Positions 29,018 to 55,895 of a DNA stretch of 64,000 nt are shown in pieces. Both the position numbers and the translations under genes were made by a program. Numbering within the stretch: the first letter of the stretch is position 1; every line of letters starts with the position of its first letter. Below the pieces are notes generated by a model. The model saw only the letters and a list, made by a program, of their open reading frames with translations, was not told the DNA's origin and did no database searches. This DNA is from Trypanosoma brucei (taxonomy: Eukaryota). The stretch covers positions 2,464,001 through 2,528,000 of the forward strand of contig CM000207.1 of the NCBI GenBank assembly GCA_000002445.1. The letters run 5' to 3'.

Positions 29018-32000
29018 TAATATTTGATCCATTGTTTCACTTTGTATAATTGGAACCACTTATTTCTGAGAATACGCTACTAAATTTAACAGCCAGTTCG
29101 AGTAGCTATTTACTGTAGGCACTATTACTCAAACAGATACCAGTAACAATTCATACGGATGATATTGTATGTTACACTATCTTAAATACGAGAAATACGA
29201 GGATCTCATTACAGTTATTTAAGCGCTTCGTATTTTACTAGGTCATACCAATCATATATTGTGAAGAATAAAGAACAGTTAGGAAAGTGTGTGTAAGTAT
29301 GCACAAGGCTTTTTTCTCAATGGAAATTTGTATTTTAGTTGTAAGCGTAGTAATTATTGTATTACGCTCATTTATACTACAACCATGTCAAATGAATATC
29401 TCATTTCTTGTATGTTTTTCTGTTTTTACAGCCACATACTCTCACCCAAATGTCGAATGAAATATTACCGTTATTATTATTATTATTTCTATCGTTCTTA
29501 TTGTTATTACATGAAACACAACATTCACATTTAATTTTTAATCATAGCCACACCTGAAAAGTAAAAGCACTCAACATTCTACAGTACTGTATACCTGTCA
29601 ATGATATGAGGAGGTGAAGTTTATATACCATTAAAGTATAGTGAATATATTTCATTATTCTTATTATTATTATTTGTTTTACTGAAAGAAATGACGGAAT
29701 GACTTTACAATAAATTATATCAGAGCAGCATGTTGTGCACCAAGTTGTTACATGGGAGAGTGTTTTGAAACACATTACGTGTCTTGCAATCCTTTTTCAC
29801 ATTTGCTGCTGGCAGATATATATTCTCAAACAGTGCGATTGAATATTCTCGTTTCATTAAAATATTTTAACTTGTTGTATTTGTTTGGTTTTGTAATAAC
29901 ATAATTTGTTTTATTACATTTCCTTTCAGAATTATTTGTGCCAAACTTTCGTGAAGATGTCATACATTCTGAATACCCTTGCGCAGCAAAGGGTAGCGTA
30001 CCACATTAATTCATTAACATTTGTGCTACATGTGCATGGGAAAGTGTATTAAGCATTTCACTGGTTTTGGGAAATATTATTTTCTTTCTTACAACATGAT
30101 GCCTCAGAAGAACTGAAGGCGAGAGCAAATCCTTTCATTGATTTTATTTTCCTTTTCTTACCGTATCCGTATATGTTTATGACTTTCCAAAAAACACTGC
30201 TGAGGTAAATTATGTATTTCTTCATATTTAATTTTTATTTGACAATAACGAGCAAAGGGATTTCCTCCTCACACACTTAAATTAATTAGACACTGCTGTT
30301 AGCTGATAAGTTACAGACAGCCGCACATTTAAGTTACACAAATCCACACCGATTCGAAATAGTAAAATATCAAATGTTATGTATTTATTTATTTGAGAAA
30401 AAAAAAAAGAGACGAAAAGCAGCGCTGCATCTGAAAGGAGATGCATGTGAAATCGAAGAACAACTGTCATTTGAATATCATATCCGCAAATTGTTTCGCT
30501 TACATTATTAGCAGTAAATGCTTACGGAACTTGGGAGGTGAATGACTACTGAAATTAAAAGGTTGAGGACGCACTGCGATGACACATGAGAAAAACATTG
30601 GTGGGATTTTTATATATTGGAAAGTGGAGTGGCTTTAAGGTGTTTTGCATGATGCTTAGTTGGAGATTGAAATACTTCATGAGATAGTGAAAGACTGTTA
30701 TGATACAGGAATCTTTTCGTTTACTAATTTCAAGAGCACTCCCGCGACGCACTTTTTTTCGGTTTACATTGCAAGAGGTGGCATGATATTTGCAACCGCT
30801 TATTTCTTATTTATTTTTTCGAGTTTATATAAGTGTGGTTTGGTGACGTGGACAATTTCAGTCTGCAACTGATGTGGCAATTCAATAATTATCAATGAAG
30901 TTTGGGGAGTGTGTTCCAAATAATGATATTATGTGTATGAGCGAAGCGTTTATCTCCTATTACTAAAACACGCAGTGCTAAGCATAATTTGATTAGGTTG
31001 TCATACAACTTTGAAGAATTGCACAGAGTTTACAGGAGGGTGCGGAAACGTTTAAGGTATTACGTCTCATATCAGATATGAATTGGCCTTTCGCCAAAAA
31101 TAAAAAGAAAGATGCCGTAGGGAAATATTCATTCAGGCGATTTGCACGTGTGGAACCTTGTAAAGAGTGAAGGAAAATTACAGCCTGTCATATGTGAAGG
31201 TATTTATCACACGCGTTTATCTAACTGCAATCGGTAACCCTGGAACTTGCAACTCTCGGAATTTGGGTTCTTTTTATCCTCTACAAGTTACTGCATTGTG
31301 ATGCAGAATAGTTGCTTGTTTTTTGCGCATCTATATGGTATTCCCATTTATATTATTATTATTTTTTTTTTTGATAAATCAATTGACGCACGCGTAGGCA
31401 CAATTAAACAGTAGAGATAGAGGGAATAGTTTCAAAGGCTATGAAGGGAATTGCCATCTCACATGCGAGGTTATATTATTTTTTAATCTCATTATAAAGG
31501 CCTGGAACCCATCAGTGACTTCAGCTGGAAACTGGCAAAACATTCTCACCATCACTTCTGAGGAGCAAATCTCCTTTGCATAAGTATGGCAAATGACTCA
31601 TCGTGGCGCTGGTTTCCAATATTTCGTGTTTTCTGCTGGGAAATAAACACCTTGGAGAAACTAAAATTACAAGAGCCTTCCTGTTATCGACCTGTATTTT
31701 CAAGGAAAAACCGCTACATGACGGAGGGTCGCCCCCCTGAATCATACGGCAGTAATGGGCGGAAACTCCTGCAGTCAAGTCACCACTACGAGCATTACTG
31801 TCCAGTGGCTGATGTTGTTGACACGGTTGTGCTCAGGAAAAAAAGGTGTAACTTCACATTAAGACAACAATTTCAAAGGTACCGTATGGAAATCTCTTGC
31901 TCTCTTCCCGAATATTAGGTGGCTTAGCCTGGGTTTAAAATGTGTCGTGATGTATCGTTGTGCAATGTTACAGAAATTAAGTAAGTAATAGAGGGAAAGC

Positions 32001-35000
32001 TGTCGCTTCACTTGTTCAAATGCATGTAAGAGAGCGTAATGGACATTAACTTCCCAGTCTAACCGGATGCGGTGCTAAAATGAAAAAATATGCATGAAGA
32101 AACGAAAATATAAAGGCATTGGAATGCGGCCAGATGACTATATTGCTATTATCCTTATGCTTTCTCACATGGCTACCGGATATATCGCTTCTTTATCACT
32201 TATAATATGAGAAATTGTCCACGGAGTTTGTGAGGGTACTGAAGTGTAGAAAAAGAAACTCATTGAATGATATCAGGAGAATACGAGTTGAAGTCTTCGG
32301 GATGTGATAAAAAGTAAAGTGGTGGTAAATGCATGAAACGGAAAGTAGAGAAATAATGTGTAAGACACTTTCAAAAAAAGTGTAAAATACTTCTGATAGA
32401 GTAAGAAATCGTACAGCGTATTTTTTACAAGCTCCACGCAGACATAATCCTGAGAGAATAACAACAGCAAATACGAAGAGAAAGAATTTATTTACTTATG
32501 AATATGAAATAAGAAATATGAATATTCCATTTATTATTCCTTGAATGTGCAGTCGCCTGACTGAGTGTTGGAAACATGGATTCTAAAGAATACATATAGT
32601 ATTTAAATGAAATGTAAGTGCAGTATCCTTCCCAAATGATCCTTAATAATTACACTTACATTATTATCGTTTTTCATTGTCCTCTACTTTACTTATTACT
32701 GTCATTATCCCACATTCCATAGGTGTATATATATACACAACATCCCCTTTTATTTGCTTCCCCCATGCCTCACTCTGTTTCTGTTTTCTTTATGCAACTA
32801 TTTTGGAGCTGCTTCCGATGTGCCACTGCAGAATGAAAAAATGCTCATTGGAACAAATGCATGAGTTTGCATATAAATATCACACATAATTTATTTTATA
32901 TTCCGAGTGTTTGCAATATAATGGAAAACATGGAAAGGAAATGAATCAATGAATATGCGCCGCAGTTGTAAAAGGTTTGTGCTACTATTGTGCTTGCTTG
33001 TCTCAAAAACTCCTTCCCAATTGTTTGGTATGAAGCAAATTGTTGTAGCAGCTTAAATGAGAAAAAAGATACATAGTCCACTCTGTTTGTTCCAACAGCA
33101 ATTTATCCTTTTTCAAAATGCTTCACACCCAATACCAGAGAAAATTTACCTCTTTTTTTCTTGTCAGTACTGACATTCCTTCTTCGCAACGTACTCTGTA
33201 GAATTGGAAGTTTGAAACAATTGAAGGGACCTCCGCACACTCACGGAATGGCATCTGTTTTGCCTTCATAATGATAGTTTCATTCCTCCGCGGGTTGTGG
33301 CGTGATATCCTCCGCTTCTCCTCTTTGTTCCAGTTTTCGCGGTATTGGAGTCCATTCCCCCTCCCTTCATTCTTCCAATTAAATTATAAAGGTATCAAAT
33401 GAAAGGGCTTTGAGGGCACTCGGCATTGACGAAAACACTACGAAGTTATTATTCCCGATAGAATTTATTCGTGAAGTGTAAGATACAAAGGAGGCCAAGT
33501 AGAGAAAATAATACAACCCAAAATGTCAGGGAACACGGGTATTTATTAGGAATAAACGTAGAACCAACATGCGCAGGCATGATACAGCAAAGACAACAAT
33601 TTCGGCTAACATTTGTGTGCATGTTCAACTTTTACAACTGGAGAAATATTCACTACTAAAGTTTTCTCACAGTTGTAATGATAACAATGCGTGAAAACAC
33701 AGATACACGCTTCTCAAATGCATGATACAACCAGAGGTGTAAATAGCTCAAATGGTAGGATTCTCGACACATGTGGAAACGAATTAACTCAACTAGCAAT
33801 ATTTTAGTTATATCGAAGCCTTACCACAATCGGTTCAGCTAAAATACTTCAAACGAGTCCTTCAAAAACCCTGTTTGTTGATGCTTTTATTTATTTTATT
33901 CTGATGCCTGGTGAGCATATTTGGCTGCGATTGATTACTGCTGCACATGTTGGATGTGCGAAATCTTTCTCTAAATTCACAGAAATATATATCGTACCGT
34001 CTTTCATTTTGCTACTCCCTTACATTCTCACCAAACATACATAGATGATACCATAGTCATCATAGCTATTGAGGAAACTGATACCTTGGTCTTACATTGC
34101 CCTGATCGTGGCCGAAACTTGCAACTTGATTTATCGTGCCTTCCGCTATCCATGCTGGAAGTTGTGTTGTGTAATATTTTCCCTCCGAGTTATGAGGTGT
34201 GATAACTGTCAGTCCTTCAGTTGTGCCCTACCAATCGAATCCATCAGCACTATTTTATTGCATCTCCTCATTCACTTCCCCCTTTACACAGACATATTTC
34301 TACCATTAAAAGTTAAAATGTGACTCATAAGCGATGATGAGACCACACCGGGTTGTTTTGCAATTACCTCAGTAGCACCACATGAAAGCGAAGTGTTGGC
34401 TTTGCATTGCCCTTCTGTGCCAATAGTCGAAAACAGAAATATAGCGAGGAATGTTTGTTATTATTTGGAATCCTTTTATTGAGTGTGACTTTGGAATCGT
34501 AACATAATTGAAATAAACAGAGAATGTGCCATCCCTCCCTTCCCATTAATTTTCTAAATGTGCTGAGAGGAGATGAAAAGTGTTTTCAGTGTTTGAAGTT
34601 TTGACATTTCAGTGGCATAATACTTCAAGTTAGTGGAAATAAAATTGCATACCCAATGCCATTATGATGCAAATACATTCAACTGACAGCATTCAATCAT
34701 CTCATTGCCAAACTTTGTTTCAACTCTCAGAAATAATATTTTTAGTAGAAAACGGCTACCAAACATAAGTAATGGGAACTACTACATCAGGAAACCAGGA
34801 ATGAAAGCGACAACGCATCTCAACTCCTGAGCAGTCAGAAGCTTTAAGGGAACCATCAACTACTGAACAAAATAAACTCACCACCGTTACAATCACCGAA
34901 GAGACGCGCGACGCCAGAAATGATGAAACTGTGGTATCATTACTGAATGAGCATGAGAAATTGATTAAACAAACGAAACGGCTGGAAAGCAGTGTGAAGG

Positions 35001-38000
35001 CACTTAAATGTTTCATGAGTAATCTCACAGCTATGAGTGGCGAAAGGCAAGGTGGTGTGTGTGATGGCACCGAATGCATACGTGCGGTAACGTTGTATAA
35101 TGCTGCTGATAATGCCTTCAGTGACGAAGGACTACATGAAGGTGCTCTTTCCTCACTCTGTGGTCGCATTCTAGCTGAGAAATTAACCATCACAATGTCA
35201 GAAGGTGAGAAATTTGACTTACAAGGAGTCAGTGAGCTAAAGCAGTTGGAAGAGTTACGCATTGAATATCCACGTGGGCAAAGGTTCTCTACTAAAACTG
35301 TTTGCATCGTCCAAGCTGATAAAGGAGGTGAAGGTGTTATCAACTGGAGAAACGGTAGTTCGCGAAGAGATTAACTGCGAGAACTTAAAGGTCATATTTA
35401 CTCTAACTCAATAGCTGCTTCCAATGATAAGGCAAATTTTCAACATGGTGAAAGGGGTTCACAATTTCACTACTCTTTGGACCTGAGAAACCAGCTAAAG
35501 ATGTTGAATCATCTGGACTGCCGATGCCAATCAGTACCGTATGCGAACTCTTCGGAAAAACGGCACTTAGGGGAGTCAAAAAACTGTGTGCGAGAGCTGC
35601 GGCAGCTACAATAGTCAGGTTTCCAACCATGAAGACGCAGCTCTAATTCTGTTTTAGAATTTCTGAGTGCTATCGGATCGAAGGAAAACAGTTCCTGAAT
35701 TGCAGCAGTGCTTATAAACTCTTTGATGAGGCTTAATTGGGTTGGTCGCAGCTGCGTTGCTCGAGGGTTGGGGTGGTTCAAAGTAGATATCACATCCAAC
35801 ATGGTGGATAAGCAACTTCCCGCCTCACTGAACAAAAAAGATCATGACAACGACTATAGAGTTCGACGAACGTGGGATTGACGCGTGGGTTTCTTCGGGT
35901 GTCGGCGTTAGGCCGCATCCTATTTAGAGCGATGTAACGTTGAGCACGGAACTAAGTAAGAACAGAGGATCCAACGATAGTTTATTTCCCAGGAATCCGA
36001 TTCTCAAAGCGAAGGATTCGGACGTAAACAAACTGGGAGGTGCGCCGCAGCGGAGAAATAATGCTTGCGCGACAGCCGCTAAGATGCTATACGTAAGCGC
36101 TGGAGAAGACGGGGCACACGGCACTTGGATTGGGCATCTGGAAACCACAAGGCCTTATGTTGACGAGGAAAAATGGCCAACGATGCCAAGACCCAAAAGC
36201 CCCCGGGCCACACTGCACCCATTAAAAGAAGTATTGAAGCATGCTCACCAAACGACAAAATCAGAAAGAACAAGAATAGAGAGGCTTAAAGCAGCAGTTT
36301 TAGCTGAACGGTGCTCCGCGGAAGAAAGCGCCTACAGTCTTCCACCCCGGAATCGTCCACGAAAAGATAAACTACGGTGTCGCTCCTAGGAGATTCTCAT
36401 GTCTCTACCTGAAAGGGGGGAAGACGGAAAGCGCGAAAGCTGAAGCAGTGCAAATCATTGCTGGGGTTTCCTCAGACTCGAACAAACAAGACATGCTCAA
36501 AAAAGCACGACTGATATTTGTTTGAAAAGCGGCAAGCAAGAGGGCGACGGAATATTACATGCAATGAAGCGCCAAAAGGGGGCGCTTTTCAAGCATAATA
36601 AGCCGGCGATAGTCGCGAAACAACCCAATACTTGAATGGCTGAATTCAGTGGAGGGATGGTGCTCCGACACCAAAAATCAAGGTGTACTCCACACTTAAA
36701 GCTCCTTGGACATTGGCTCCAGAGTGTACACAAATTTGCCATACGTGGGTGGGTATAAAAGCAAACGCAAAAGACAAATGGAGGAGGGCTCATACGCCGA
36801 AAAAAATAGGGATATTCAGCAAGAAGGACTGAAACGTTTCAACAAATGAACTGGTGAGTTTAGGCAGTTAGTCCACTGCAGAAACGATAATCATCGGCAA
36901 CATGGAAGAATACAGGATTAAAGGGACACCTGAATATTGGGATGCAGTCATCGTGCAGAAGCAATGCTAATGGAAAAGGTGCTGAATACGCTACTGGAAA
37001 CAATGAAAGACAGAGTTTAGCGGAGGATTGAATCGCGGGCTGTGTATGGAAGGGTGGTTTTCACAGTCAGTAAAAAGAATGCGGTGATTTCTATGCAGCT
37101 TATTTTCTTCCACCACGTTGTTTGGAAAGACAGCGCAATAGCAGATGAGATTGCAGTGGAAGAATCAACTGCAGAAAGACACACCTAATATATAAAGTTG
37201 ATATTTTGGTGGGAGACATAAAGCAGAAGCGCAACAAAAGAACATGCTGTGCTCGAAGCTGGATTGGGGCGAAATACGCACAGGAGAAACTTTCTAGGCC
37301 CCATCGAGTCTCTACTAAAGAAGCGATCGCATGCCGGAATAAAAGAAATCTCGCCCTTTAACAATTTCATATTCACACCCCAGAAACAATTTGGCTAGAC
37401 CGGTGGAACAGCCTCGTTCCCTGATAAGTGTTTCAGCAAATATCGGTTGTACGACAGCCAAATTGATATTGTTGAAAAAAAGAAACAATATCCCGGAGAG
37501 CTTACCAATGAATTAAAAACGCTATTGATAGCCCCCAAGGCTAAGGCAGAGAGAGGTTTGCGATCCAGTGATAGGCACAGAATGTAACTTCATCGTCCAC
37601 TGATAAGGATAGACCATGAGTGACGTAGTTAAGGTACACGAGTGGGCAGAAGTGGCAGACGCATGGGAAGGCTTTAAAAGATGCTGTGAAATCCCTCGTG
37701 TGCGCCACGGATGCTATCAATGTGTTTTGTGTGAGTGTGGCACTCCCCGGAAATGTGAGAAACTTTAAAAAACATATAGACAGACGTGAGAAAGAAAGCA
37801 TAGTATGAAGAAAGAACAGAAAATAGGCCAAGAAAAACAGGTGTCATCGAGGAGAGTGTAACAAAATGCTCACTAAACCAGGAAAAGCGCCAACAACATG
37901 ACTAAACTTCTCTATTTCATTCAGCTACAAACATGAAGAAAGAACTCCGCATGGAAAAAATGTGAGGACGAAATACCAAAGTCATTAGAACGTTCGCAGC

Positions 38001-39699
38001 CAAGTGAAAAAATGAGAGATTCAGCTCAGTGCCATGTTCGTCCGTCATTTCAAAGAAGTATCTTCGGAGGTTTTGGTTTATAAGGAGCATGACGTCGGCG
38101 GGCGTTCTGGAAGGAAGGAAAAAGGGGAAGGAAGTTCCCAACTAAATAAGAAAAGAGACCTAGAAACCGTACATTCGTTTACCTCGGCGTCCTACACCGC
38201 AAACGCTGGGAAGGGAAAGGACACCAACGGGAGCTGCGGAGCAGCGTACAGGCCAATACAAGAAATCACAGCGGCTAGTCCCCAATTTCTAAAACTTCTA
38301 AACCAAATAAAACAGTTCCCATCACCGAAGGCGCCCGCGCATAAGGAAAGAACGAGGCTGCAACAACAAATGACAACCATTCATCACACTATTCTCCATT
38401 TTACCATCCGGAAGAAGTGCAGCACCGCATTCACCATGCTTCAGTATTACCAAACAAAGAATGACATTGCCAATATGCTCACATGATGGCCAAACACAAA
38501 CATTTCCAAAACAGGAAAGCCCAGTAAAAAAAAACCATTTAAAATAAAAAACAAACTGTAACGCAACAACGTCATACTAAAAGGGAAACAATATATTCGA
38601 ATCAATAATTATAATAGTCGAAATAAATAGTTAACACAAACATAAATACAAAAAAATCATTTAAAATAATAGAGCAAACAAACATAATTACGCACCACTA
38701 TGTTATTTTCTTTTTCCAACAGCATTGCAATCAAACTATTTACGGCAACATTCCGCCAATTTTAGATGCTGGTACACAATGTTCCTCACGGCGTATTGTT
38801 GTGCAAAACAGTGTTACCATGCAATTCGCAACCTTTTTGTACTCAAAAAACACGCCTTTCTGTACAACATGCTCCATGCGGGATAATTGATGCACAAAAT
38901 GTGCATTTTGTGCCATAATAGAAAATGCAATAGTAGGCAATAAGGCGTATTTGATGTATGGGCTTCGATTTCGTATCTATTTTTGCTTAAACCACTTTGC
39001 TGTTGTTCGGTGAAAGGTGTCGAGGACAACTGGGGTTACAATTGGTGCCGCTTTTGAGTGGTATAGAGGAGAAAAGCCACCGCTGAATACGCTTGTCTCA
39101 AGTTCTGCTTACCGCAGGTGTTACCGGCCGTGCCCGATTGTTTCCGTTGGCCATCTTCGTGTGCTTTGTTACTAGAAACTTCATATCTGCATCTGTTCAC
39201 AGTTTCTGGCCAAACTTCGTTTTCCATCTACAAAGTTATCCCTATCTTGCCCATGGAGCTTTCTGATAAACTGAAAGCACATATCTTTTCTATGAATTAG
39301 CATCCCTTCGCGAACTTACTACTAAACATTTGGTTTCCGCCATCACATTAAAAACCGCAGTGTCAACCATTTTCGGTGTTACATTTATACATTCTTGAGT
39401 TATTTACGGCAAATAATCTCCTCTCGTGTCATTTTTCTCTTTCTGCTATAATTTCACGCACTCTCTTGTTCTATTCTATATTTCTATTTCTTTAGTTTTA
39501 ATCTTCTGTTTTTATCACTGCAAATATCATCTCGACTTCTTTGGCTTCTGCACTGGATTCTCTCTTTCCCTCATATCATTGCATATAATAATACCAATCA
39601 TCATGTTTGTGCTTGAAGTTGCGCGCATTCCATCTCCCTTTACCTCGATCCTCCTCACTCACTTACTGTCCCACTTACCCACTTTCACTCATTGAACTC

Positions 39700-40130
39700 T
39701 TTTAACTCTTGTAACTCTTATAACTCTCCTAAGTGTTTTATTTTCCCTATTACTTAGGTCTTTAAAACCTCAATTCTTATAATATTGCTTCTATTGTTAT
39801 AATGCCCTCAACCACTGTTACCATTACTATAGCCATAACCCTTAAATACTCTCAATACTCATAATATCAACAAATAATAAAAATAGACCATATTAGAATA
39901 GCACTCATTTTTCATTCCATATTATTACAGTGCCTTGCTCCTATAGGCCACGATCATAACAAAACTACGTATTTTTCATATTCTCAAAAATTTATAAATC
40001 TTCACATTTTCATGAAAAAGTGTTAAAATATAGTAAAATCTCATAAAATAGGAATTTTCATAAATTTTCATGAAATTGCGTAAAAATCCTTAAAATGCTT
40101 ATATTGCTACGAAAAGCACAATGGAAGCAA
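39700..40130 (-). other. Inverted copy of a VSG downstream flank (reverse-complemented 16-mer-like element, CCCTAA telomere-like motif, 70-bp-repeat-like TAAGAGTT motifs)
   Basis: gtgttaaaatatag at 40020-40033 is the reverse complement of the VSG 3'UTR 16-mer. gccataaccctt (about 39826-39838) is the reverse complement of the gggttatggc motif seen at 47225. actcttataactcttgtaactctt is the reverse complement of ataagagtt motifs that flank 70-bp repeats. Confidence 0.6.
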
Positions 40131-40584
40131 CAGTCAGAGAAAACTTCTTATTGACAAGAAAACTGGAATCTTTGCAAGTGTTTTCAATCCATCCACAAAC
40201 AGCTTTGTCACCTGAATTTACATTCTTGTTTTCCGCTTCGCATTCCTCCTTCTTATTATGCTTGGAGCACCTTGACTCAGTTTTCTCGCCTTTCCCATCT
40301 TATTTCAGTGTCTGGTGTGCCGCTTTTGTTGACTCCCCCTTATCCAATTTGCACTTCTTTTTGCCACCTTCTTCTTCAACTTTGCATGGGGGTTTGCATT
40401 CATCTCCTGTTCCTTTTGCTTCGCAAGTTGCGTCTGTTTCGGTGACTTTTGTTCTCGCTATCTGGGACTTGGTTTGAGCGCCGGCTACATTCTTTTGTAG
40501 GTTGGTTTTTTTTTCCCTCGCGCAACCGTCAGGACCATGCAGTTGGTACACACCTGATGGTAAGGAGGAAATGCATTTATGCAC
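40130..40584 (-). pseudogene. VSG 3' fragment (C-terminal domain + GPI signal) in inverted orientation
   Basis: The minus-strand ORF 40300..40584 encodes a cysteine-rich VSG C-terminal domain (...CEAKGTGDECKPPCKVEEEGGKKKCKLDKGESTKAAHQ). Downstream on the minus strand, in a shifted frame, lies the GPI-signal-type sequence (reverse complement of gaaaacttcttattgacaagaaaactggaatc, i.e. DSSFLVNKKFS). Confidence 0.7.
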
Positions 40585-40589
40585 ACCAC

Positions 40590-41160
40590 ACCACGAGGAC
40601 GCGGTGATAGCGTGGAATTCAACGCTGGAGACCGGCGTTCCTACTCACTAAAAGACCCTGTTTTTTTTTTTTGAAGAATTGATACCCACAAGTTGGCGAC
40701 CGCATGTGCGCGTTTCTAGGGAAGCGGTCTCCATTTGACGCCCGTTCGATCCCTCCCACGTTGCGTGAACCATGTTTACCATATCTTTCCGCCTCCCCGG
40801 ATGGAGATTTTATCAGGGATTTTGGTTCCCCACCTGAGCATGGCACTGAACCGTGGTGGAAAACTAAGTAATGGTTCTCTCCCCACGGAGCGGTCGCACC
40901 ATATCCGGTGTTGCGGCCGCTGTTTGGATGGAACATTTGACTTCCCAGTTTATTTCTCTTCTGGTACTGGATCCTGGCGCCATATTGAAGCAGATCTATC
41001 CTTAGTGTAAGCTAAATACTCGCAGCCAGATGGGATAGATCTCGGTATTATCTGCGACGAGCACTCTACTTAACCACTAAACCAAGGTAGACAAGGCTCT
41101 TACCCATCCGAAAACGACCCCCGTGCCTGTGAAGGAGCAGAAATAAAAATATTGTGGGCT
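40590..41160. other. Unassigned non-coding element between the inverted VSG fragment and the first VSG: T13 run (40660-40672), tRNA B-box-like GTTCGATCC (40744-40752), short inverted repeats; possibly retroposon or tRNA-derived remnant
   Basis: There is no coherent ORF. A poly(T) (poly(A) on the minus strand) and an isolated T-loop-like motif are present. A 6-bp perfect hairpin (GACCGC/GCGGTC, 40698-40729) lies just upstream of the B-box-like motif. No cloverleaf could be folded by eye. Confidence 0.2.
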
Positions 41161-41181
41161 CGTAGAATAGGAAAAAAGGAG

Positions 41182-42625
41182 ATGATGATGCGCGCTACAA
41201 CGGTGGCTTCCTTACTAGTTTTAACTTTGCATGCAACAAGGCAAACTGCTGCAAACAAAAAAGCAATCAAAGTACAAGGATTTGTGAAGATGTGCACGCT
41301 TTCCAAAAATCTCAGACCGTGCAGGCGTACGCAACCAATAGACTAAAAAAATGGAAGATGATGATTGCAGATCTCAATGATCTCTGCGAGGACCTAACAA
41401 TTCTAAACAAAAAGTAGCGAAAAGTGCCTGAAGTCGCGACACCAGCTTTAATAAGGCTCTTAAGGCATGAGGCAAAAGCGTTAGAACACAAGTATCAGAC
41501 CCTGGAAGAAACAGCACCACTGGCGGGCTCACTTTCGGCACAGGCAGCAGGGGCAATGGACGAAGCAGCAGCTACTTTCTACGCAGCAACCAAAAACGGC
41601 GGCAGCGGCAAATACTACCTTGACCAGGACGGAACGGCCAACAAACTGGCCACAGCAACAGATCTAGCAGGATTCATGACCGAAGAAAGCGCCCCAGTAG
41701 CAGCAGCAGCAGACACAGCGGCAGTCGAAGTCAAGCCGTCCGATATAACAACCGCAGCGGGCACGGGAAGTGACTGCTTACTCACGCAAACGGACAGCAA
41801 TGGCGGTTATATCAACAGTGACGGCATGACCACGGGCATCAAATGGGCCGGCGGCCTTCTAACGTTCAGCACGAACCAATTAACAAACAATCCCTGGACT
41901 GATACGTCAGCGGCGTTAGCGACAGCACCGGTGCTAGAGCAGGCGGCACGACAGCTGGCAACCATATCAACAAAGTGGAGCCACACGAGCGCCGCAATAG
42001 ATAACCTCCTAAAACTCAAAAAGCCCACCGAACAAACTTTCACTGACATCGAGACCAACGAAAATGTCCTGAACCCTGGAGGCAACGACAAGGCACTAAA
42101 GGTAACAAAGGAACAACTAGAGCAGATCAGGCAAAAAGTAAATAATTACAGAGAACCACTCGCCCGTGACGGGAAACTAGACTCAAGCAGAAATAGTTTT
42201 CACCTCCAAGAACTGACGACAAACACTACAGTTACAATTGAAAAAGTCACCGCAGAATGCAACAAACACACTCAGGGAAAGCAAAGCTACGAGACAAAGG
42301 AAGAAGAATGTAATAAGGCAAAAGACAAAAAAAGTGAATGTGGAAAAAAAACTGGGTGCACTTACGACGGCAGTAAGCCAGCTGGCAAAAAATGAACATT
42401 GAGTGAAGAAACCAAACCAAGCATCGGCAAGAGAAACAGCAAACCAAGAAATAGAAGGAAATGATGAGAAAAAAGGGGAGAAATTTGCAGGGAAAGAACA
42501 AAAATACTGAAAAGATAGCTTCAAATGTAAAGGAAAAAGTGCAGGGATCTCGGTTTTCTCATCAATAAGAATTCTGCTCTGAGTATGGCTGCTGTTTTTG
42601 TGAGCTTTGTAGCATTTTAAGAATT
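41182..42625 (+). pseudogene. VSG: VSG pseudogene (full length about 1.44 kb, frameshifted)
   Basis: An N-terminal signal peptide and a VSG-type mature N-terminus sit in one frame (MMMRATTVASLLVLTLHATRQTAANKKAIKVQGFVKMCTLSKNL; ORF 41152..41346). The main body is in a second frame (41418..42395; the track start 41424 is GTG) and ends in the Cys-rich CTD ...CNKAKDKKSECGKKTGCTYDGSKPAGKK. A GPI-signal-like tail follows in a third frame (...GISVFSSIRILL / DSSFLINKNSALSMAAVFVSFVAF-type at about 42540-42625). No 70-bp repeat upstream. Confidence 0.85.
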
Positions 42626-42702
42626 TTAAGGATTACTGCTCAATTTATTGAAATTTATGAAATTTTGCTATATTTCTTTATTTATCTTTAAGGGATATAT
42701 TT

Positions 42703-42800
42703 AATGATTATAATAGTAATAGTAATCATAATAATAACTATAATAAATATATAGAAGAGCGTTGTGAGTGTGTATATACGAATATTATAATGAAAATTGT
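42703..42800 (+). repeat. VSG-associated 70-bp repeat (about 1.3 copies)
   Basis: taatagtaatagtaatcataataataactataataaatatatagaagagcgttgtgagtgtgtatatacgaatattataatg matches the 70-bp repeat structure: a TAA/TGA-rich part followed by the conserved GTTGTGAGTGTGTATATACGAATATTATAAT core. Confidence 0.85.
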
Positions 42801-45038
42801 GGTAAAAAGTAAATGAGTGGTGAATATAAAAGATTTTAAACAATATAATGGTCGAAATGGACGTAAGTGAGTAAAAGAGATAACACGATTAATGTTATTA
42901 GAGAAAACACGGAAATACAGAAAGAGAGATGGTATATTGAACAGAAGCAGTTTCAAATATGAATATGGATAGGGGCATCATTATACACAACGAGATGACG
43001 AATGGAAAAATAAGGGAGAGACAAAGTTCAGTGACCAGGTTAACTTCTGGCGCTATGTTATGTGCAAAGTATCGGAAGTTAGCGGAAAGATAGAAACAAA
43101 AATAGAAACCGAAACACATGTATCTGTGACCGCCACTGTTTCAGAGAATTTACAACCTAAAGAATGTATTATTTTCTTCAATATGAGACCGTCACTAGAA
43201 GTAAATTGCATAGAATGTTTTTTACCCAATGAATCAGCTACTGGTTGCAGTTAAATTCTCTTAAACTAGCAAAAACAGCACCAAAGTTTGAAAGACTGGC
43301 AGTAAACGGAAATACGCAATGAAGTATAAACGTTGAGAACAAAAAAAGGTTGCATTGCTTCAAAAGTAGCTAAGACACACTGACACTTAGTATCCCTTTA
43401 CACTCGAGGTAATTGTCAAGATTATTGAATAGAATCAAGTATTTTGTTGTTTTTCTAGAACGAAGACAGGTAGAGACGTGGAAAGTGCATCCCAAATGAC
43501 GGAAGCAGTAAACTGAAAACAAGATGACTTAGTAGAGGTTGATTGAATCTACCTTAGTTTATAGAAACCACAGTAGTCTAGCTGTTTCATACAAGGTTCT
43601 TGTTTCCCTAAAGCTTTCGGTCTCGCTATGTTTAAAAGGAGTCAAAATATAGCACACAAATATAAAAATAAATATCTCAAATGGAAGAAACAGGAGCACT
43701 TAAGTTACGAAGGGAAGTAGTCTCAAGGAAACTAGTAGCACCGACTCTTCTTCAATGTTCATAACGTCCATACGAAAAAAAAGATGAAACACATATAGTA
43801 TGGACCTGAATTGGCTGTACAGTTAGAAGGTGTGACTACAAAGGAAATTAAAAATGATCGGTGCGATCAACCGGCAAGCCTCAAAAAAAACATATTTCAC
43901 TCAAAGCTGGATAGATACAGAAACGGAGATAATGGTGACGATCATGTTTTTAATCCGTTTGGAGTTTCTAATATAAAGTTATAGATACCCAGAAATGTAT
44001 TGGATAATTGTGAGGTGCTATAAAAATTTCTTATGGTATTTAGTAATAATGGAAAACATTGTTGGAAACAATATAATATTATCGGAAGGAGAACTTTACA
44101 TATAGAATTGCTAATGGATGACAGTGGAAAGGAAAAATAAAGCAAAGAAAGTGATTAACACAGGATGTTTATGGAGGAATTATTTATGAATTAGAGGGAA
44201 TTAACAGCAACATTCCTGTAATTTCGTATTGATATACTGGACACGCATTAGGATATTTCAAGGAACAAGTAATCTATATAAAAGCAGTCAATGGTGAACA
44301 AATGACGGTTGCCATTAACAAGTTAATCCAATAAACAAAAGCTCCCAAAGCACAAATGTCCAGTTATTAATAGAAAGAGGAACATCCACGCCTAGGATTT
44401 CGAACAAAAGAAAAAAGCTAACCTTTTTTTTGTAAAAATAAGCAATGTTACATTGTTATTCGACCTGCGGCACCTGGAGCCAATATTGCAGTAAGTAAAA
44501 CAAGCGAACGCCATTGAGGTTAAAAATTTAAGATATAGAGGCTTTTTAGATTATTTGCAAAAACATAAGGGTTTAGTGGTAGAGGAATAAATGAAAAATT
44601 TGATACGCCTGCAGCGGCAGTGGACAAGATTAGTGTAAGTGACTCTAAGTGAGATACAAAGAAACATGACAGAAACTGCCGGCACCAACGTTTAACAGAA
44701 CGCATTTTCCGACCGATTCGGAGGTTCATATCCGCGTTTGAACTTCAACGTCAGAAATCCTACAACAGCAACAGAAACCCATAATTAAACAGCAGAGAAG
44801 CAACAGCCTGTAGTACCTGCGCAGTTTCGAACAAATGTTGCGGCGTGCGCGAACCAGAGTGACATCGAAAACATAAGTTTTCAAAGCGCTATCATCGATC
44901 CACACAAAAGAACAACCAAAATGGAAATTCACAACGGCTTATTCAGAGGCGCTATCCAAAGCCCTGACCACTGCCCGTCGCTGGCAAATGCAGCAATAAC
45001 TGGCTGAGAACCAGCGGTCAAAGGGAAGGAAATGCAAT

Positions 45039-46699
45039 ATGAAAAGGGAGCTGTCCACGATCCACGTCATCGCCAACAAACACTTTTCTTTGAACCACAA
45101 AACCGCACAAGACAACGGTAATGCCCTCAGGAAGAGACAGGATAGACCTACAGATCGAATAGCTGTCTCCCTAACCACACAAAAAACCAAGGTGGATACT
45201 CTTAACTTACAAAAATTCACTTTAGGAAAGCGAAACACAGCAAGGTCTAGAGATTCTAAGGGAAAAAGCCCAGAAGTCCGCAGTTTTGCTGGCGGAATTT
45301 GTGGCCGCGGTATTCGCACAGGATGAAGACTCCTCAGTCGAAGCAATAAAGAGCACGTGTGATGAAGCGGTGTGGCTTCACACCGTCCAAGATAATTATA
45401 TCAAAAATGTACAAACAGCTGCAGCTCGAAATTCTGACCTACTCACAGAAGCCAGAATCCTAACCCTAGCCGCGGCACAGTTCTCCGACCAAACACAACA
45501 GGTGGTACTAACCTCGTTAGCTGCCATTGCAGACCAGCGAGCAACTGCAGCGGCAGCGATCCTAAATCGAGAAACACCAAGCTTACTAGCAGCGGTAGCC
45601 TTGCTGAACGAACGACGCGGCAACGTCCGAGCACTGGCGCGCATTCTAAGCACGCAAGAATCCGCAACTTTCTCAGGGTCGACGGCAGCCGGTGGCGGCA
45701 ACGTCCTCTTTGCCGCGACAACAGTCAAGTGCTTTCTAATAGCAACACTGGACAAGAAACCCACAGCGGAGTGTACAGTAACGGAACAGAGCGCGACGAA
45801 GCTAGCAGATGCAGGCCACCACCTGGCCAAAATAACGAAAATGAAAGCGATACCGCTAACAAAATTTGGCATTCCTCAACTTGGTGTGGACATAGAAACG
45901 AAAGGTACATTCGCCGCAGGCAGTAACCAAGCAAACGAAAATAACAAATGCGCAGACAAACCCATAAAAAGCAGCGAAACCAACGGTTCCTGTTTAACGA
46001 AACTAGCACTAAATCAACCTACAGCGGCACCAACGGACGTGAAACTGAAAGATAAAGACGCCTTCGTAAACGTATCCAAAGAAAAAGACCACTACATCAC
46101 CACTGGTACCCAGGTAGCAAGCGCCACCTATAACCCAAGAGCCCTAACATCCAAACTTCTAGGAAAGATTGCGGATGAAACGGCCGATTTCCCGAGCGGC
46201 GACCCCGCCATTAAGAACGTAATCTATCTCGCACTTAGCCAAGAGAAAAACATCAAGGACAGCACCGACCAAAAAGCAGAAAATGTAAAACCCTGCTTGG
46301 CGGCGCCGGGAACAAACTACAAGACAAAATTTTTTGACTTTCAACGAAGACAACATAAAGTATACTGTTAGGGAACAAACCGTAACCACGAGTGTAAGGG
46401 AGGCTGCAAGCGATTTAAACTACGGAATAACACTAGCATTTTCGCATAAAAGACAACACGGCAATAGCCAGAGCAAGGAATTCCAGAGAGCAGGTGAAAG
46501 CACCGACAAAATCAAAGAAACTGAATGCAGAAATAGAAAAGACAGAGGCAAATACAAGGAAAAGAATGGGTGTGAATTCAAAGATGAGGATTGCAAAGTT
46601 AAAGTGACCACAGCAACAGAAACAACAGAAAACACCACAGAAAGCAATTCTTATGTCATTAACAAGGCTCCTCTTTTGCTTTTATTTTTGATTTTATAA
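45039..46699 (+). pseudogene. VSG: VSG pseudogene (at least 2 frameshifts; degenerate N-terminus)
   Basis: The first ORF 45039..45326 carries the mature N-terminus-like AQDNGNALRK. The main ORF 45286..46371 (its track start is TTG) is a VSG N-domain with an Ala/Thr-rich helical region. A third frame, 46334..46699, ends in a classic CTD plus GPI signal (...GCEFKDEDCKVKVTTATETTENTTESNSYVINKAPLLLLFLIL*). Confidence 0.9.
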
Positions 46700-46904: not shown

Positions 46905-47270
46905 TAGCGACCATTGTTAGGGTTAAATTTTGGTTTTTTGACAATTTTTGGTTTTCGATTTTTCTAGTGACTTTTGAATTTTTAAGGTTGAGGTTTTTAG
47001 GATTATTAGAGTTAAGGTTTTTTTGTTAGACATTTTTGAGATTTATAAATTTTTTTGGCATTTTTCACATTTTTTAAAGTTTTTGGAGTTGGATTAATTT
47101 TATAAAAAAATTGGGGTTTTAAACTCTTTTATGCGTTTTATATTAATTTTCGTAACTTCAGATTTACACTGAACCCGGCATCAGTTGTGCTAAAACCAAA
47201 AACAAAAGAAAGGAAGGATAGATAGGGTTATGGCTAGAGTTAGGGTAAGAGTTAGGGTTATTCGGGTAGA
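46905..47270 (+). repeat. Degenerate telomere-like (TTAGGG-related) repeat block downstream of a VSG
   Basis: Direct sequence reads: tgttagggttaaatttt, ttaaggttgaggtttttaggattattagagttaaggttttt and gatagggttatggctagagttagggtaagagttagggttattcgggtag (47215-47268). The block is homologous to 51295-51340. Confidence 0.8.
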
Positions 47271-48000: not shown

Positions 48001-48055
48001 TGAGAGAATCTACAAAAATTTGAAACAATCTGATATATTTTAATTATTTTTTAAT

Positions 48056-48195
48056 AGTTAGAGTTATATAATAATTATGATATTAATAGAAGAGCACTGT
48101 AAGTGTATATATACTAATACTATAATAATAATAATAGGATAGTCTTGTGAGTGTGTTTATAATAATGTTATGATAAGAGTTGTGGTGAAGAATGA
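48056..48195 (+). repeat. 70-bp repeats (about 2 copies)
   Basis: ...aatagaagagcactgtaagtgtatatatactaatactataataataataataggatagtcttgtgagtgtgtttataataatgttatgataagagttgtggtgaag. Confidence 0.85.
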
Positions 48196-49589
48196 ATTTA
48201 ATGACAAAAATGGAAGCACCGAAAACAATGTTATGTGTGCAATTGCAGTAATTGAGTAAGTGTGATAGAACGAGATTTTATATGTGTAGATTTAAGCACA
48301 TATGTAAATATGGGTATCATTATACAAAAAGGTGATGGTTATTGATAGGAAGTGGGGGCAGAATGCGGTGTATAGGTCACATGGAATCGATACATTGTCT
48401 GTCGAAGATAAATTACACAAAAAAGAATAAACGAAAGTATGGAATAAAATAACCTAAGAGAAAATAGCACAGTATGAAAGGAAATTACACCGAAAATAAA
48501 TATGCTCCGTATTTCATGTGGAAATAGATATAATCCACTGCGAAGATAGTGCTTTGGAATGTGGTTGTTAATGTGATGGCGAATCCTATTTTTTAGAATG
48601 TGAAGAAATACAAAAAAGAGAAACTGATAGGAGGAGCGGATTGAGAAACTGTGAAGCAATTTAGAAGTATTCTCATCAAATGTAGTAATAATGACCGATG
48701 TGTGCTGGATATGACATAACATTGTCTTGAAAAGGATTTTAGAACTGGAACTACAAATGAGTTATCGCGGATAACAAAACAGACAAAACGCCGAAGTTTC
48801 TTAGAGTAGAACGTGTGTCAAGCTATGAATTATCTCTATGAAGCGAAGGGAAATAATGACGATATTCTTCCAATCTTGTATTGGTATATTTACCAGTCAT
48901 TAATAATTTTCAAGGATCAAGTAAACCATATAAAAGTGGTTGCCGACACAAAGTGAACGCCGCGTGTTTACAAATCAAAAAAGTGGAAGAAGGCGGTTTT
49001 GTGTCCACTGTTTTCAAGTCTTCAGCGACAGTGTCCGATAAAAAACAAGGATGTAAGGCAGAAAGACACTGCAAACCTTTTCGTGATAAACAACAATGCT
49101 TTCTAGTTATTACGCAGATATTCAATGTAGAATTGAAAGAAAATAGAACCAATAAAAAACATGAGATTTGAATTCCCATGCATAGAAATATTTCTTACTT
49201 TCATCCATCAACCTCAAAGATGAGACTGAACAAATACCATTGGTGAAAACCAAAAATAAACACACAAAGTGTGAGCAGGAAGAGCATTCGTAGTGGGTAT
49301 GCAATTAAACTGCCACCTTCAAGGTTACAACAACACAGAACGTAAATAGGCGATGTGTGATGCATCAAAAACAGCCACAACAGTTTAATGCAATTACTGA
49401 AACAAACACAAATGAAGCATAACCCAACTCACCATTGCAACACCCACCAGCAGCGTGACGAACGACTGCCACACAGCTCTAAACAGCACTTGCACGTCCT
49501 ACATACTTTTCAGCACGCCTTAATGAGGTTCTGCTCTGTGATACCCATAAATTCCTTAACTTTTGTCAATGTAGCTAGAGAAACGGACG

Positions 49590-55759: not shown

Positions 55760-55895
55760 AAATAATTAATATTCTAATTTGGTTTAGGTTTGTTTATTTT
55801 ATGTATATAAGTGAAGTTTATAATGGTAATAGCAATGATAATGATAGGAGTTTGTTTTGAATGCGTATATTGTAACATTGTTAATATAATAAGAG
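55760..55895 (+). repeat. 70-bp repeats (degenerate, about 1.5 copies)
   Basis: ...taatggtaatagcaatgataatgataggagtttgttttgaatgcgtatattgtaacattgttaatataataagagcag. Confidence 0.75.

What the first reader, a model, noticed from the sequence alone, without database searches (positions are those of the whole stretch)
39700..41181. Array boundary: inverted VSG 3' end plus a tRNA-like/poly(T) element in place of the usual 70-bp repeat upstream of the first VSG
The first VSG of the array (41182-42625) has no 70-bp repeat upstream. Instead there is a minus-strand VSG C-terminal domain and GPI-signal fragment (40130-40584). Its own inverted downstream flank lies at 39700-40130 (reverse-complemented 16-mer at 40020-40033, CCCTAA motif near 39830). 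Between this and the first VSG is a 570-bp element with a T13 run, a GTTCGATCC B-box-like motif, a 6-bp perfect hairpin and several short inverted repeats. A head-to-head VSG remnant marks an inversion or breakpoint at the edge of the array. The intervening element could be a retroposon (RIME/SIDER-like) or tRNA-derived remnant that mediated it.
Basis: seen in the sequence. Interest (0 to 1): 0.5.

Follow-up and report, generated by a model that had tools for sequence, protein, structure and literature searches.

The report
Old SIDER2 retroposon beside VSG remnant
The unexplained 570-bp stretch at the edge of this trypanosome surface-antigen gene array is an ordinary, long-dead copy of a known short retroposon (TbSIDER2) lying next to a broken-off antigen gene tail, not a tRNA-like or new element.

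Summary
The sequence features are mostly real, but the boundaries and some details are wrong.

- **What the element is.** The minus strand of window 40506-41087 is a full-length TbSIDER2. This is a short, non-coding, extinct retroposon of the ingi/L1Tc clade of Trypanosoma brucei.
  - It matches seven published TbSIDER2 copies end to end (80-84% identity by BLASTN, E from 1e-140 down to 0).
  - It is 582 nt long and 10.2% diverged from the family consensus, both within published family ranges.
- **What was excluded.** No tRNA, no Rfam family, no RIME match and no coding capacity were found.
- **The inverted VSG remnant.** It is real but shorter than stated, about 39971-40505. It holds a hinge, a complete C-terminal domain, a GPI signal and a 3'UTR with a 14/16 match to the 16-mer.
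- **Wrong details.** Positions 40506-40584 belong to the retroposon. The T-run is 12 bases, not 13. There is no CCCTAA.
- **Location.** A second element (TbSIDER1, 56024-56638) is 100% identical to a published locus. This places the window on T. brucei TREU927 chromosome 9, so the SIDER2 is at about 2,504,506-2,505,087.
- **Open question.** Whether the retroposon caused the head-to-head junction cannot be decided here. A simple inversion is not supported.
- **Verdict.** Ordinary and essentially already known.

The parts
40506..41087 (-). Full-length TbSIDER2 retroposon (short interspersed degenerate retroposon, ingi/L1Tc clade), 582 nt. The 5' end CCTTGGTTTAGTGG... is at 41087 and the terminal poly(A) is at 40506-40514.
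   Evidence: BLASTN against seven published TbSIDER2 copies from the supplement of PMC4035085 gives 80-84% identity over 580-589 aligned columns, E from 1e-140 to 0. A MAFFT alignment is end to end (A1). The copy is 10.2% diverged from a leave-one-out consensus, like the published copies. It is the only copy in the window.
40927..41087 (-). 5' signature region of the TbSIDER2: the first 161 nt, described in the literature as two tandem '79-bp signatures' or Pr77 hallmarks. It contains the 10-bp perfect stem 40992-41001 / 41033-41042 and an A-box-like string TGGTTTAGTGG.
   Evidence: This stretch aligns with the signature region of the published copies at 80-86% identity. The inverted repeat is I2. 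The 161-bp extent is taken from PMC2323293, Figure 4 legend.
40661..40672 (-). Other family members have A6-A8 at the same alignment position.
   Evidence: Run length. Alignment columns about 450-465 of A1.
40744..40752 (+). It is the reverse complement of the conserved TbSIDER2 block GGATCGAAC and is not a Pol III promoter element.
   Evidence: Position. TCGAAC is conserved in five of the six aligned copies, with one T substitution in the sixth. No tRNA found by ARAGORN or Rfam.
40506..40514 (-). Terminal poly(A) tail (A9) of the TbSIDER2, abutting VSG-derived sequence.
40099..40505 (-). VSG C-terminal gene remnant. It has about 25 hinge codons, a complete C-terminal domain (40117-40425), a GPI-anchor signal from 40170, a premature in-frame stop at 40300-40302 and a terminal stop at 40099-40101. 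No N-terminal domain is present.
   Evidence: Pfam PF10659 Trypan_glycop_C, E=8e-23 and 1.8e-21, profile positions 1-101 of 104. Translation.
39971..40098 (-). 3' UTR of the VSG remnant, including the 16-mer TACTATATTTTAACAC at 40020-40035 (14/16 match to the canonical sequence).
   Evidence: Reverse-complement homology to the 3' ends of + strand VSGs at 42540, 47894, 52014, 55433, 58478 and 61530, 67-83% identity. 16-mer.
41088..41181 (.). 94-bp spacer between the 5' end of the TbSIDER2 and the ATG of the first + strand VSG. At least one rearrangement breakpoint must lie here or at one end of the retroposon.
   Evidence: The spacer has no similarity to other VSG upstream regions in the window. 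No target-site duplication is present, and the ingi4 upstream signature is ambiguous.
41182..42620 (+). First VSG of the + strand array. It is an A-type VSG pseudogene: signal peptide, then a frameshift near 41345, an in-frame stop at 41415-41417 and stops in the C-terminal domain.
   Evidence: Pfam PF00913, E=2e-10. Translations. The closest database VSGs are 65-73% identical T. brucei VSGs.

Best explanation
**Shown.** The 570-bp element is a complete but decayed copy of TbSIDER2 on the minus strand (40506-41087). TbSIDER2 is a roughly 573-bp non-coding, non-autonomous retroposon of the ingi/L1Tc clade. Only about a dozen copies exist in the T. brucei genome, and the family is regarded as extinct. 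The copy carries the family's 5' double signature region (Pr77 hallmark), its internal A-run and its terminal poly(A).

**Inferred from family knowledge.** Elements of this family were inserted by target-primed reverse transcription, borrowing the enzymes of an ingi4-type autonomous element.

**Shown.** The poly(A) end of the retroposon directly abuts the hinge of a minus-strand VSG remnant. That remnant keeps only a C-terminal domain, a GPI signal and a 3'UTR. The retroposon's 5' end lies 94 bp from the ATG of the first + strand VSG pseudogene of a subtelomeric array. The locus is on T. brucei TREU927 chromosome 9, at about 2.5045 Mb.

**Inferred.** The retroposon is a passive relic. It either inserted into a VSG that later lost its N-terminal half, or inserted upstream of the first VSG and later had the inverted VSG tail joined to its poly(A) end. 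In either case one end of the retroposon coincides with an old rearrangement breakpoint that also removed the 70-bp repeat region. It is not a tRNA or Pol III gene, and nothing indicates present-day activity.
For: **Family identity**
- The paper supplement prints seven TbSIDER2 copies.
- BLASTN of these copies against the window hits only 40506-41087, on the minus strand, over their full length. Identity is 80-84% and E runs from 1e-140 to 0.
- The MAFFT alignment shows matching 5' and 3' ends.
- Length 582 nt falls in the published range of 558-587. Divergence of 10.2% from consensus falls in the published range of 8-13.7%.

**Non-coding**
- There are no Pfam hits in six frames and no protein homologues.

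**Not an RNA gene**
- ARAGORN and Rfam find no RNA gene.

**VSG remnant**
- The remnant is defined by Pfam and by homology to other VSG 3' ends.

**Genomic placement**
- Window 56024-56638 is 615/615 identical to the published TbSIDER1 locus Tb927_09_v4:2,520,024-2,520,638, flanks included.

**Fit with the known distribution**
- 95.5% of TbSIDERs lie outside directional gene clusters. T. brucei retroposons lie mostly in subtelomeres, and strand-switch regions carry the highest retroposon density.
- The TbSIDER2 ribozyme construct was inactive in vitro.
Against: - No target-site duplication is recognisable; the best ungapped match is 50%.
- The ingi4 insertion-site signature upstream scores only 4/10 in register, or 6/10 with a 2-nt shift. 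That is within what chance gives once seven shifts are tried. Insertion at this exact spot is therefore not demonstrated. Vestigial duplications are rare in this family anyway.
- The order of events (insertion versus rearrangement) cannot be resolved from one genome.
- I could not confirm that this copy is one of the 12 counted in 2007, because their coordinates are only in figures.
Confidence: 0.93

Rival explanations
1. The TbSIDER2 actively created the boundary. Ectopic or inverted-repeat recombination between this copy and another SIDER2 (or another ingi-clade element) inverted or translocated a VSG segment. This produced the head-to-head junction and deleted the 70-bp repeat.
For: - One end of the retroposon must coincide with a breakpoint. 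Its 3' flank is an inverted VSG tail and its 5' flank is 94 bp from a + strand VSG ATG.
- No target-site duplication is present.
- The literature reports the highest retroposon density at strand-switch regions.
- Published chromosome 6 SIDER2 copies share identical internal blocks, which suggests exchange between copies.
Against: - The N-terminal domain that a simple inversion would leave nearby is absent on both strands within 10 kb.
- Identity to the seven references varies smoothly along the element, with no sharp switch of closest relative.
- Loss of the duplication is expected from age alone at about 10% divergence.
Confidence: 0.2
2. The element is a tRNA-derived or other Pol III-type small RNA gene or remnant. 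In this reading the B-box GTTCGATCC is its promoter and the T-run its terminator.
For: - GTTCGATCC at 40744 resembles a B box, and a T12 run is present.
- The minus-strand 5' end TGGTTTAGTGG resembles an A box.
Against: - ARAGORN finds no tRNA in 64 kb.
- Rfam finds nothing at gathering thresholds, and only chance-level unrelated hits at E<=10.
- The A-box-like and B-box-like strings are on opposite strands and about 330 nt apart.
- The T-run lies upstream of the B-box on the + strand.
- All three features are conserved columns of the TbSIDER2 alignment.
- The fold energy is not unusual, z=-0.9.
Confidence: 0.01
3. The element is a RIME or a truncated ingi/DIRE fragment.
For: - It has the same clade hallmarks: a 5' signature related to the 79-bp motif and a poly(A) tail.
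- Its length of about 500-600 bp is in the same range.
Against: - None of eight RIME LAMP primer sites (PMC6324077) matches the element better than random background.
- No reverse-transcriptase or endonuclease signal appears in any frame.
- The match to TbSIDER2 is full length.
- According to the literature, TbSIDER families share only the signature with ingi/RIME.
Confidence: 0.01
4. The TbSIDER2 is a functional boundary or regulatory element, acting as a Pr77-type promoter, a ribozyme or a chromatin mark. It would separate the core-side sequence from the silent VSG array, or substitute for the 70-bp repeat as upstream homology for recombination of the first VSG.
For: - Pr77 hallmarks of related elements have promoter and HDV-like ribozyme activity (abstracts).
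- Both SIDERs in this window lie antisense and within about 100-310 bp upstream of a VSG start.
Against: - The TbSIDER2 ribozyme construct showed no cleavage in vitro.
- The family is considered extinct and, unlike in Leishmania, not domesticated in trypanosomes.
- The element points away from the first VSG.
- The first VSG is itself a pseudogene.
- The SIDER1 example has a 70-bp repeat as well.
Confidence: 0.05

Closest known systems
TbSIDER2 (T. brucei short interspersed degenerate retroposon 2; Bringaud et al. 2007, PMC2323293; Sanchez-Luque et al. 2014, PMC4035085)
   Same: - The nucleotide alignment is full length.
- The 5' end (CC[C/T]TGGTTTAGTGGTTAAGTAGAG...) and the 3' end (...GCGCGAGGGA(n)) are the same.
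- The 161-nt signature region and the internal A-run are present.
- Length, divergence from consensus and lack of coding capacity all match.
- The subtelomeric location outside directional gene clusters matches.
   Different: - This copy is not one of the seven printed in the 2014 supplement; the closest of those is 86.6% identical.
- Its first bases read CCTTGG rather than CCCTGG.
- The internal A-run is longer (12 against 6-8).
- No vestigial target-site duplication is present.
- Its 3' flank is a VSG hinge.
TbSIDER1 / TSIDER1 (Bringaud et al. 2011, PMC3820030)
   Same: - It belongs to the same clade and is about the same size.
- It has the same orientation and position relative to a VSG in this very window (56046-56617, minus strand, about 310 bp upstream of a VSG start).
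- It shares a 3' block, GTGCATAAA(T/C)GCATTTCCTCCT.
   Different: Outside the signature and the 3' block there is no similarity; SIDER2 against SIDER1 in this window gives only one 69-nt hit at 70% identity. SIDER1 has a single signature and used ingi6-type machinery, not ingi4.
RIME / ingi of T. brucei
   Same: It is in the same retroposon clade, with a related 5' signature, a poly(A) tail, and the same preference for subtelomeres and strand-switch regions.
   Different: RIME is 500 bp, about 4% diverged and still active. Its diagnostic LAMP primer sites are absent here. Ingi is 5.2 kb and coding.
LmSIDER2 of Leishmania
   Same: It has two tandem signatures at the 5' end, is about 0.55 kb long, and is extinct and non-coding.
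   Different: The Leishmania family has about 1000-2000 copies and sits in 3'UTRs, where it regulates mRNA stability. The trypanosome family has about 12 copies, lies outside gene clusters and has no shown function.
C-terminal VSG gene fragments of the silent VSG archive (described in the T. brucei genome papers; cited from my own knowledge, not checked here)
   Same: The remnant is a VSG C-terminal domain plus GPI signal and a 3'UTR with the 16-mer. It lacks an N-terminal domain and carries a premature stop.
   Different: Here the fragment is inverted relative to the adjacent array and is capped by a retroposon rather than by a 70-bp repeat or another VSG.

Membership tests
TbSIDER2 | Nucleotide similarity to family members over the whole element, with divergence from consensus in the family range (8-13.7%) | tested here: met
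   Identity to seven published copies is 80-84% by BLASTN over their full length. Divergence from a leave-one-out consensus is 10.2%.
TbSIDER2 | 5' '79-bp signature' / Pr77 hallmark (about 161 nt, described as tandemly duplicated in TbSIDER2) | tested here: met
   The first 160 or so nt (41087 down to 40927) align with the signature region of the published copies at 80-86% identity. I did not test the tandem duplication independently; that description comes.
TbSIDER2 | Adenosine-rich 3' end | tested here: met
   An A9 run at 40506-40514 lies at the aligned 3' end.
TbSIDER2 | Size of 558-587 bp and no coding capacity | tested here: met
   The copy is 582 nt. There are no Pfam hits in six frames and no homologues for the longest frame. 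The five-frame search found nothing but may have been compromised by X-runs in the query.
TbSIDER2 | Flanking target-site duplication of about 12 bp | tested here: not met
   The best ungapped match between the flanks is 4/8 or 5/11. This is not a strict family requirement: only one TbSIDER2 was reported with a degenerate duplication.
TbSIDER2 | Upstream ingi4 insertion-site signature AxxxxxxxTxxxGTxGGxTxxx|xTxTxxTxxxxx | tested here: inconclusive
   The score is 4/10 specified positions in register (background probability 0.27) and 6/10 with a +2 shift (0.03 per position, seven shifts tried).
RIME | Sequence identity to the ~500-bp RIME, tested through eight published LAMP primer target sites | tested here: not met
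   Primer sequences come from PMC6324077. No site in the element matches better than background at up to 5 edits.
tRNA gene or tRNA-derived SINE | Cloverleaf structure, or A and B boxes in order on one strand followed by a T-run terminator | tested here: not met
   ARAGORN finds 0 genes. Rfam gives no tRNA hit even at E<=10. The A-like and B-like strings are on opposite strands.
HDV-like ribozyme (L1Tc/ingi Pr77 ribozyme) | Nested double-pseudoknot fold and self-cleavage | not testable with these tools
   Rfam gives no HDV-type hit. The published TbSIDER2 ribozyme construct was inactive in vitro. Cleavage by this copy was not assayed.
VSG (C-terminal fragment) | VSG C-terminal domain, GPI-anchor signal and 3'UTR 16-mer | tested here: met
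   PF10659, E=8e-23. The GPI signal reads DSSFLVNKKFSLTVASIVLFVAI followed by a stop, and the 16-mer matches 14/16. 3' homology to six other VSGs is.
70-bp repeat | Similarity to the array's own 70-bp repeat units upstream of the VSG | tested here: not met
   BLASTN with the unit at 42690-42835 finds copies upstream of six other VSGs but none between 32330 and 42690.

The most novel reading that the evidence does not exclude
SIDER retroposons may be more than debris in VSG arrays. Both copies in this window lie antisense just upstream of a VSG start. At the array edge, the TbSIDER2 may mark, or have provided the homology for, the recombination event that set the core-proximal limit of the chromosome 9 array. 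It could still act as a dispersed recombination or chromatin-boundary site in place of a 70-bp repeat.
Probability: 0.06. Interest if true: 0.45.

Novelty: already known. Interest (0 to 1): 0.13.

Why it matters
It matters little beyond annotation.
- The result replaces a speculative "tRNA-like/poly(T) element" with a precise call: TbSIDER2, minus strand, 40506-41087. It also corrects the limits of the adjacent VSG remnant and anchors the window to TREU927 chromosome 9.
- For people studying VSG archive structure, it adds one documented case where an extinct retroposon sits exactly on a rearrangement junction at an array edge. That fits the known enrichment of trypanosome retroposons in subtelomeres and strand-switch regions.
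- It would become interesting only if SIDER-VSG junctions turned out to recur at array boundaries genome-wide.

Tried and rejected
**Searches that found nothing**
- tRNA and small-RNA searches were negative: ARAGORN, Rfam at gathering thresholds and Rfam at E<=10 on 39600-41300.
- No second copy of the element exists in the window.
- Before the element was identified, I guessed it was a 450-500-nt minus-strand RIME ending at the internal A-run, with a duplication GGGTC(G)TTTT (note 1). This was rejected. RIME primers do not match, and the family alignment shows the element continues 155 nt past that A-run.
- Protein-level searches of the element gave nothing: the 113-aa minus frame, Pfam on six frames and five concatenated frames.
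- Vector or plasmid contamination was suggested by the EcoRI, NotI, BamHI and BglII sites. There is no plasmid match.
- The RNA fold of the minus strand has z=-0.9, which is not notable.

**Attempts to reach other strains**
- Exact-protein look-ups for four window ORFs were not on record.
- The homologue search with the first VSG returned only a contig-less identical sequence and 65-73% identical VSGs.

**Literature checks that fell short**
- Three papers do not print signature or target sequences in their text.
- Coordinates of the 12 original TbSIDER2 copies are only in images.

**Tests on the copy itself**
- The target-site duplication was not found and the ingi4 signature test was inconclusive.
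- The chimerism scan gave no clear switch of closest relative.

**Search for the missing half**
- Pfam on three minus frames (30600-40520) and three plus frames (29050-39040) found no N-terminal VSG domain.
Full report
**Context**

The window is a core-to-subtelomere transition of an African trypanosome chromosome.
- On the left are ordinary genes: a RING + Ras-family GTPase (8102-9121), a nucleoside transporter (16584-18068, minus strand) and a split leucine-rich-repeat gene (27504-29017).
- From 41182 onward there is a + strand array of VSG genes and pseudogenes.
  - An A-type VSG starts at 41182 and a B-type at 59984.
  - Six + strand VSG 3' ends resemble one another.
  - 70-bp-repeat-like units lie at 42690, 48032-48197, 52307, 55805, 58685 and 61718.
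- Between 29 kb and 39.97 kb, neither strand contains any Pfam-recognisable domain. The feature under study is therefore the first VSG-related sequence met when coming from the core side.

**Checking the observation**

- The first + strand VSG begins with ATG at 41182 and encodes a signal peptide. It is then broken by a frameshift and stops, and ends at 42618-42620.
- No 70-bp repeat lies upstream of it. BLASTN with the array's own repeat unit finds none between 32330 and 42690.
- A minus-strand VSG C-terminal domain is real. PF10659 scores E=8e-23 and 1.8e-21 and maps to 40117-40425.
  - Its GPI signal is DSSFLVNKKFSLTVASIVLFVAI, followed by a stop at 40099-40101.
  - It has a premature stop at 40300-40302.
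  - The 16-mer TACTATATTTTAACAC at 40020-40035 matches the canonical sequence at 14 of 16 positions.
- The remnant's 3' part is reverse-complementary to the 3' ends of the + strand VSGs over 39971-40211.
- GTTCGATCC is at 40744.
- A perfect 10-bp stem (40992-41001 / 41033-41042) and three weaker inverted repeats are present.

Some details are wrong.
- The T-run is 12 bases long (40661-40672), not 13, and a second T9 run at 40506-40514 was overlooked.
- No CCCTAA occurs in 39600-41300; the sequence near 39830 reads CCCTTAA.
- The boundaries of both the "element" and the "VSG fragment" are misplaced, as shown below.

**Identifying the element**

Generic searches gave nothing.
- ARAGORN found no tRNA in the whole window.
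- Rfam found nothing at gathering thresholds, and only chance-level unrelated hits at E<=10.
- There is no second copy in the window.
- There are no Pfam domains in six frames and no protein homologues. One search was probably weakened by the X-runs in my concatenated query.
- There is no plasmid or vector match.
- The fold energy is unremarkable.

Read on the minus strand, the T-run looks like a poly(A) tail, so I first suspected RIME. The eight target sites of the published RIME LAMP primer set (PMC6324077) do not match the element above background, which rejects RIME.

The decisive reference came from the literature.
- The supplement of Sanchez-Luque et al. 2014 (PMC4035085) prints seven complete T. 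brucei SIDER2 (TbSIDER2) copies with their flanks.
- BLASTN of these copies against the window hits one place only, 40506-41087 on the minus strand.
- The hits cover essentially the full length of each reference, at 80-84% identity, with E from 1e-140 to 0.
- A MAFFT alignment (A1) shows that both ends coincide.
  - The 5' end reads CCTTGGTTTAGTGGTTAAGTAGAG..., where the family has CCCTGG....
  - The 3' end reads ...GGTTGCGCGAGGGAAAAAAAAA.
- The copy is 582 nt long; the published family range is 558-587 nt with a 573-nt consensus.
- It differs from a leave-one-out consensus by 10.2%, against a published range of 8-13.7% with a median of 11%.
- In pairwise identity, the copy is as close to the published copies (80-87%) as they are to each other (78-94%).

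It is therefore an entirely typical family member.

- The T12 run is the reverse complement of the family's internal A-rich run. The other copies have A6-A8 at that position.
- The true 3' poly(A) is the T9 run at 40506-40514.
- GTTCGATCC is the reverse complement of a conserved GGATCGAAC block of the family.
- The minus-strand 5' end TGGTTTAGTGG happens to resemble a tRNA A box, but it lies on the opposite strand from the B-box-like string. Together, this rejects a tRNA-derived or Pol III reading.
- The perfect stem at 40992-41042 lies inside the 161-nt signature region. The 2014 paper mentions a large hairpin there.
- Because the retroposon extends down to 40506, the stretch 40506-40584 is not VSG. 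VSG-derived codons begin at about 40505.

**Genomic placement**

While listing + strand reading frames, I noticed a translated motif at about 56.1 kb that resembled the SIDER2 tail.
- The minus strand there carries a Pr77-type start, CCCTGGCGTTAGTGG.
- The same supplement prints TbSIDER1 copies.
- The copy labelled Tb927_09_v4:2,520,024..2,520,638 is 615/615 identical to window 56024-56638, flanks included. The next best published copy, Tb427_11_01_v4 on chromosome 11, has three mismatches.
- Both ends give the same offset of exactly 2,464,000.
- The window is therefore T. b. brucei TREU927 chromosome 9, 2,464,001-2,528,000, and the TbSIDER2 lies at about 2,504,506-2,505,087.

**How it most likely came about**

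The following is established family knowledge.
- TbSIDERs are non-coding, non-autonomous retroposons of the ingi clade and are considered extinct.
- TbSIDER2 copies are preceded by the ingi4-type insertion signature, so they are thought to have used Tbingi/TbDIRE machinery.
- 95.5% of TbSIDERs lie outside directional gene clusters. T. brucei retroposons sit mainly in subtelomeres, and strand-switch regions carry the highest retroposon density.

This copy fits that picture. For the local history, only limited statements are possible.
- No target-site duplication is recognisable, and the upstream signature test is ambiguous. Both are common for this old family.
- On the 3' side, the poly(A) abuts the hinge of a same-strand VSG remnant.
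- On the 5' side, only 94 bp separate the retroposon from the ATG of an opposite-strand VSG.

Two histories are possible.
- The retroposon inserted into a minus-strand VSG, and everything upstream of it was later replaced.
- It inserted antisense upstream of the first VSG, as the TbSIDER1 does about 310 bp upstream of the VSG starting near 56925. The region beyond its poly(A), including the 70-bp repeat, was then replaced by an inverted VSG tail.

In both cases one end of the retroposon coincides with a breakpoint.
- A simple local inversion of a retroposon-interrupted VSG is not supported. No VSG N-terminal domain is detectable on either strand within 10 kb.
- A scan of identity along the element shows no sharp change of nearest relative that would indicate a recombinant SIDER2. 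Only seven of about twelve references were available, however.

**Function**

Nothing points to current activity.
- The published TbSIDER2 ribozyme construct did not cleave in vitro.
- The element points away from the first VSG, and that VSG is itself a pseudogene.
- The family has not been domesticated in trypanosomes, unlike in Leishmania.

**Comparison with what is known, and novelty**

- The family was described in 2007 from this same reference genome, as 12 TbSIDER2 and 10 TbSIDER1 copies.
- This copy is not one of the seven printed in 2014. It is very probably among the original twelve, but I could not verify that because their positions are given only in figures.
- C-terminal VSG fragments and retroposons in subtelomeres are both familiar features.

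The finding is therefore ordinary and essentially already known.
- The tRNA and RIME alternatives were wrong.
- The causal claim remains open.
- Strain comparison, which would settle the order of events, was not possible. The window's proteins are not on record in the contig index, and the homologue search returned no contigs.

Noticed in passing
window 56024-56638 (element about 56046-56617, minus strand): A second retroposon, TbSIDER1, is 615/615 identical to the published locus Tb927_09_v4:2,520,024-2,520,638, flanks included. It lies antisense between a 70-bp-repeat-like unit (55805-55846) and the next VSG, whose ORF starts at about 56925. Published copies on chr9 at 3.01 Mb and on chr11 at 4.59 Mb share its flanks, so these copies spread by segmental duplication of array DNA rather than by retroposition.
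   Followed up: partly
whole window: The exact match above gives an offset of 2,464,000 at both ends. The window is therefore T. b. brucei TREU927 chromosome 9 (v4), 2,464,001-2,528,000, in + orientation.
   Followed up: yes
window 29050-39970: About 11 kb of low-GC sequence (31-45%) lies between the leucine-rich-repeat gene and the VSG remnant. No Pfam domain is detectable in any of the frames scanned (plus frames 29050-39040, minus frames 30600-40520). What it is remains unknown.
   Followed up: partly
window 27504-28133 and 28151-29017 (+): Two adjacent ORFs both carry leucine-rich repeats. They look like one LRR gene (ESAG8/LRRP-like) split by a stop or frameshift, as is typical near subtelomere boundaries.
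   Followed up: no
window 39683-39727: There is a 9-bp tandem repeat, TTTAACTCT x5, just below the VSG remnant's flank. A nearby 29-nt stretch (39814-39842) is reverse-complementary (86%) to 47224-47252, which lies downstream of a + strand VSG. The inverted flank may therefore extend further than the solid homology does.
   Followed up: partly
window 40563-40634 versus 56046-56120: TbSIDER2 and TbSIDER1 share a conserved 3' block, GTGCATAAA(T/C)GCATTTCCTCCT (23 nt at 96% identity to a published SIDER1). The literature describes the two families as sharing only the 5' signature.
   Followed up: no
window 41060-41087 (minus) and TbSIDER2 consensus: The 5' end of every TbSIDER2 copy (TGGTTTAGTGGTTAAG) resembles a tRNA A box / D-arm. 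ARAGORN finds no tRNA, so this may be coincidence or a very old trace.
   Followed up: partly
window 45226-46371 (+): A 361-381-codon open frame sits in the position of the second array VSG but gives no Pfam VSG hit at E<=0.01. It may be a divergent or degraded N-terminal domain.
   Followed up: no
That negative result should not be relied on.
   Followed up: no
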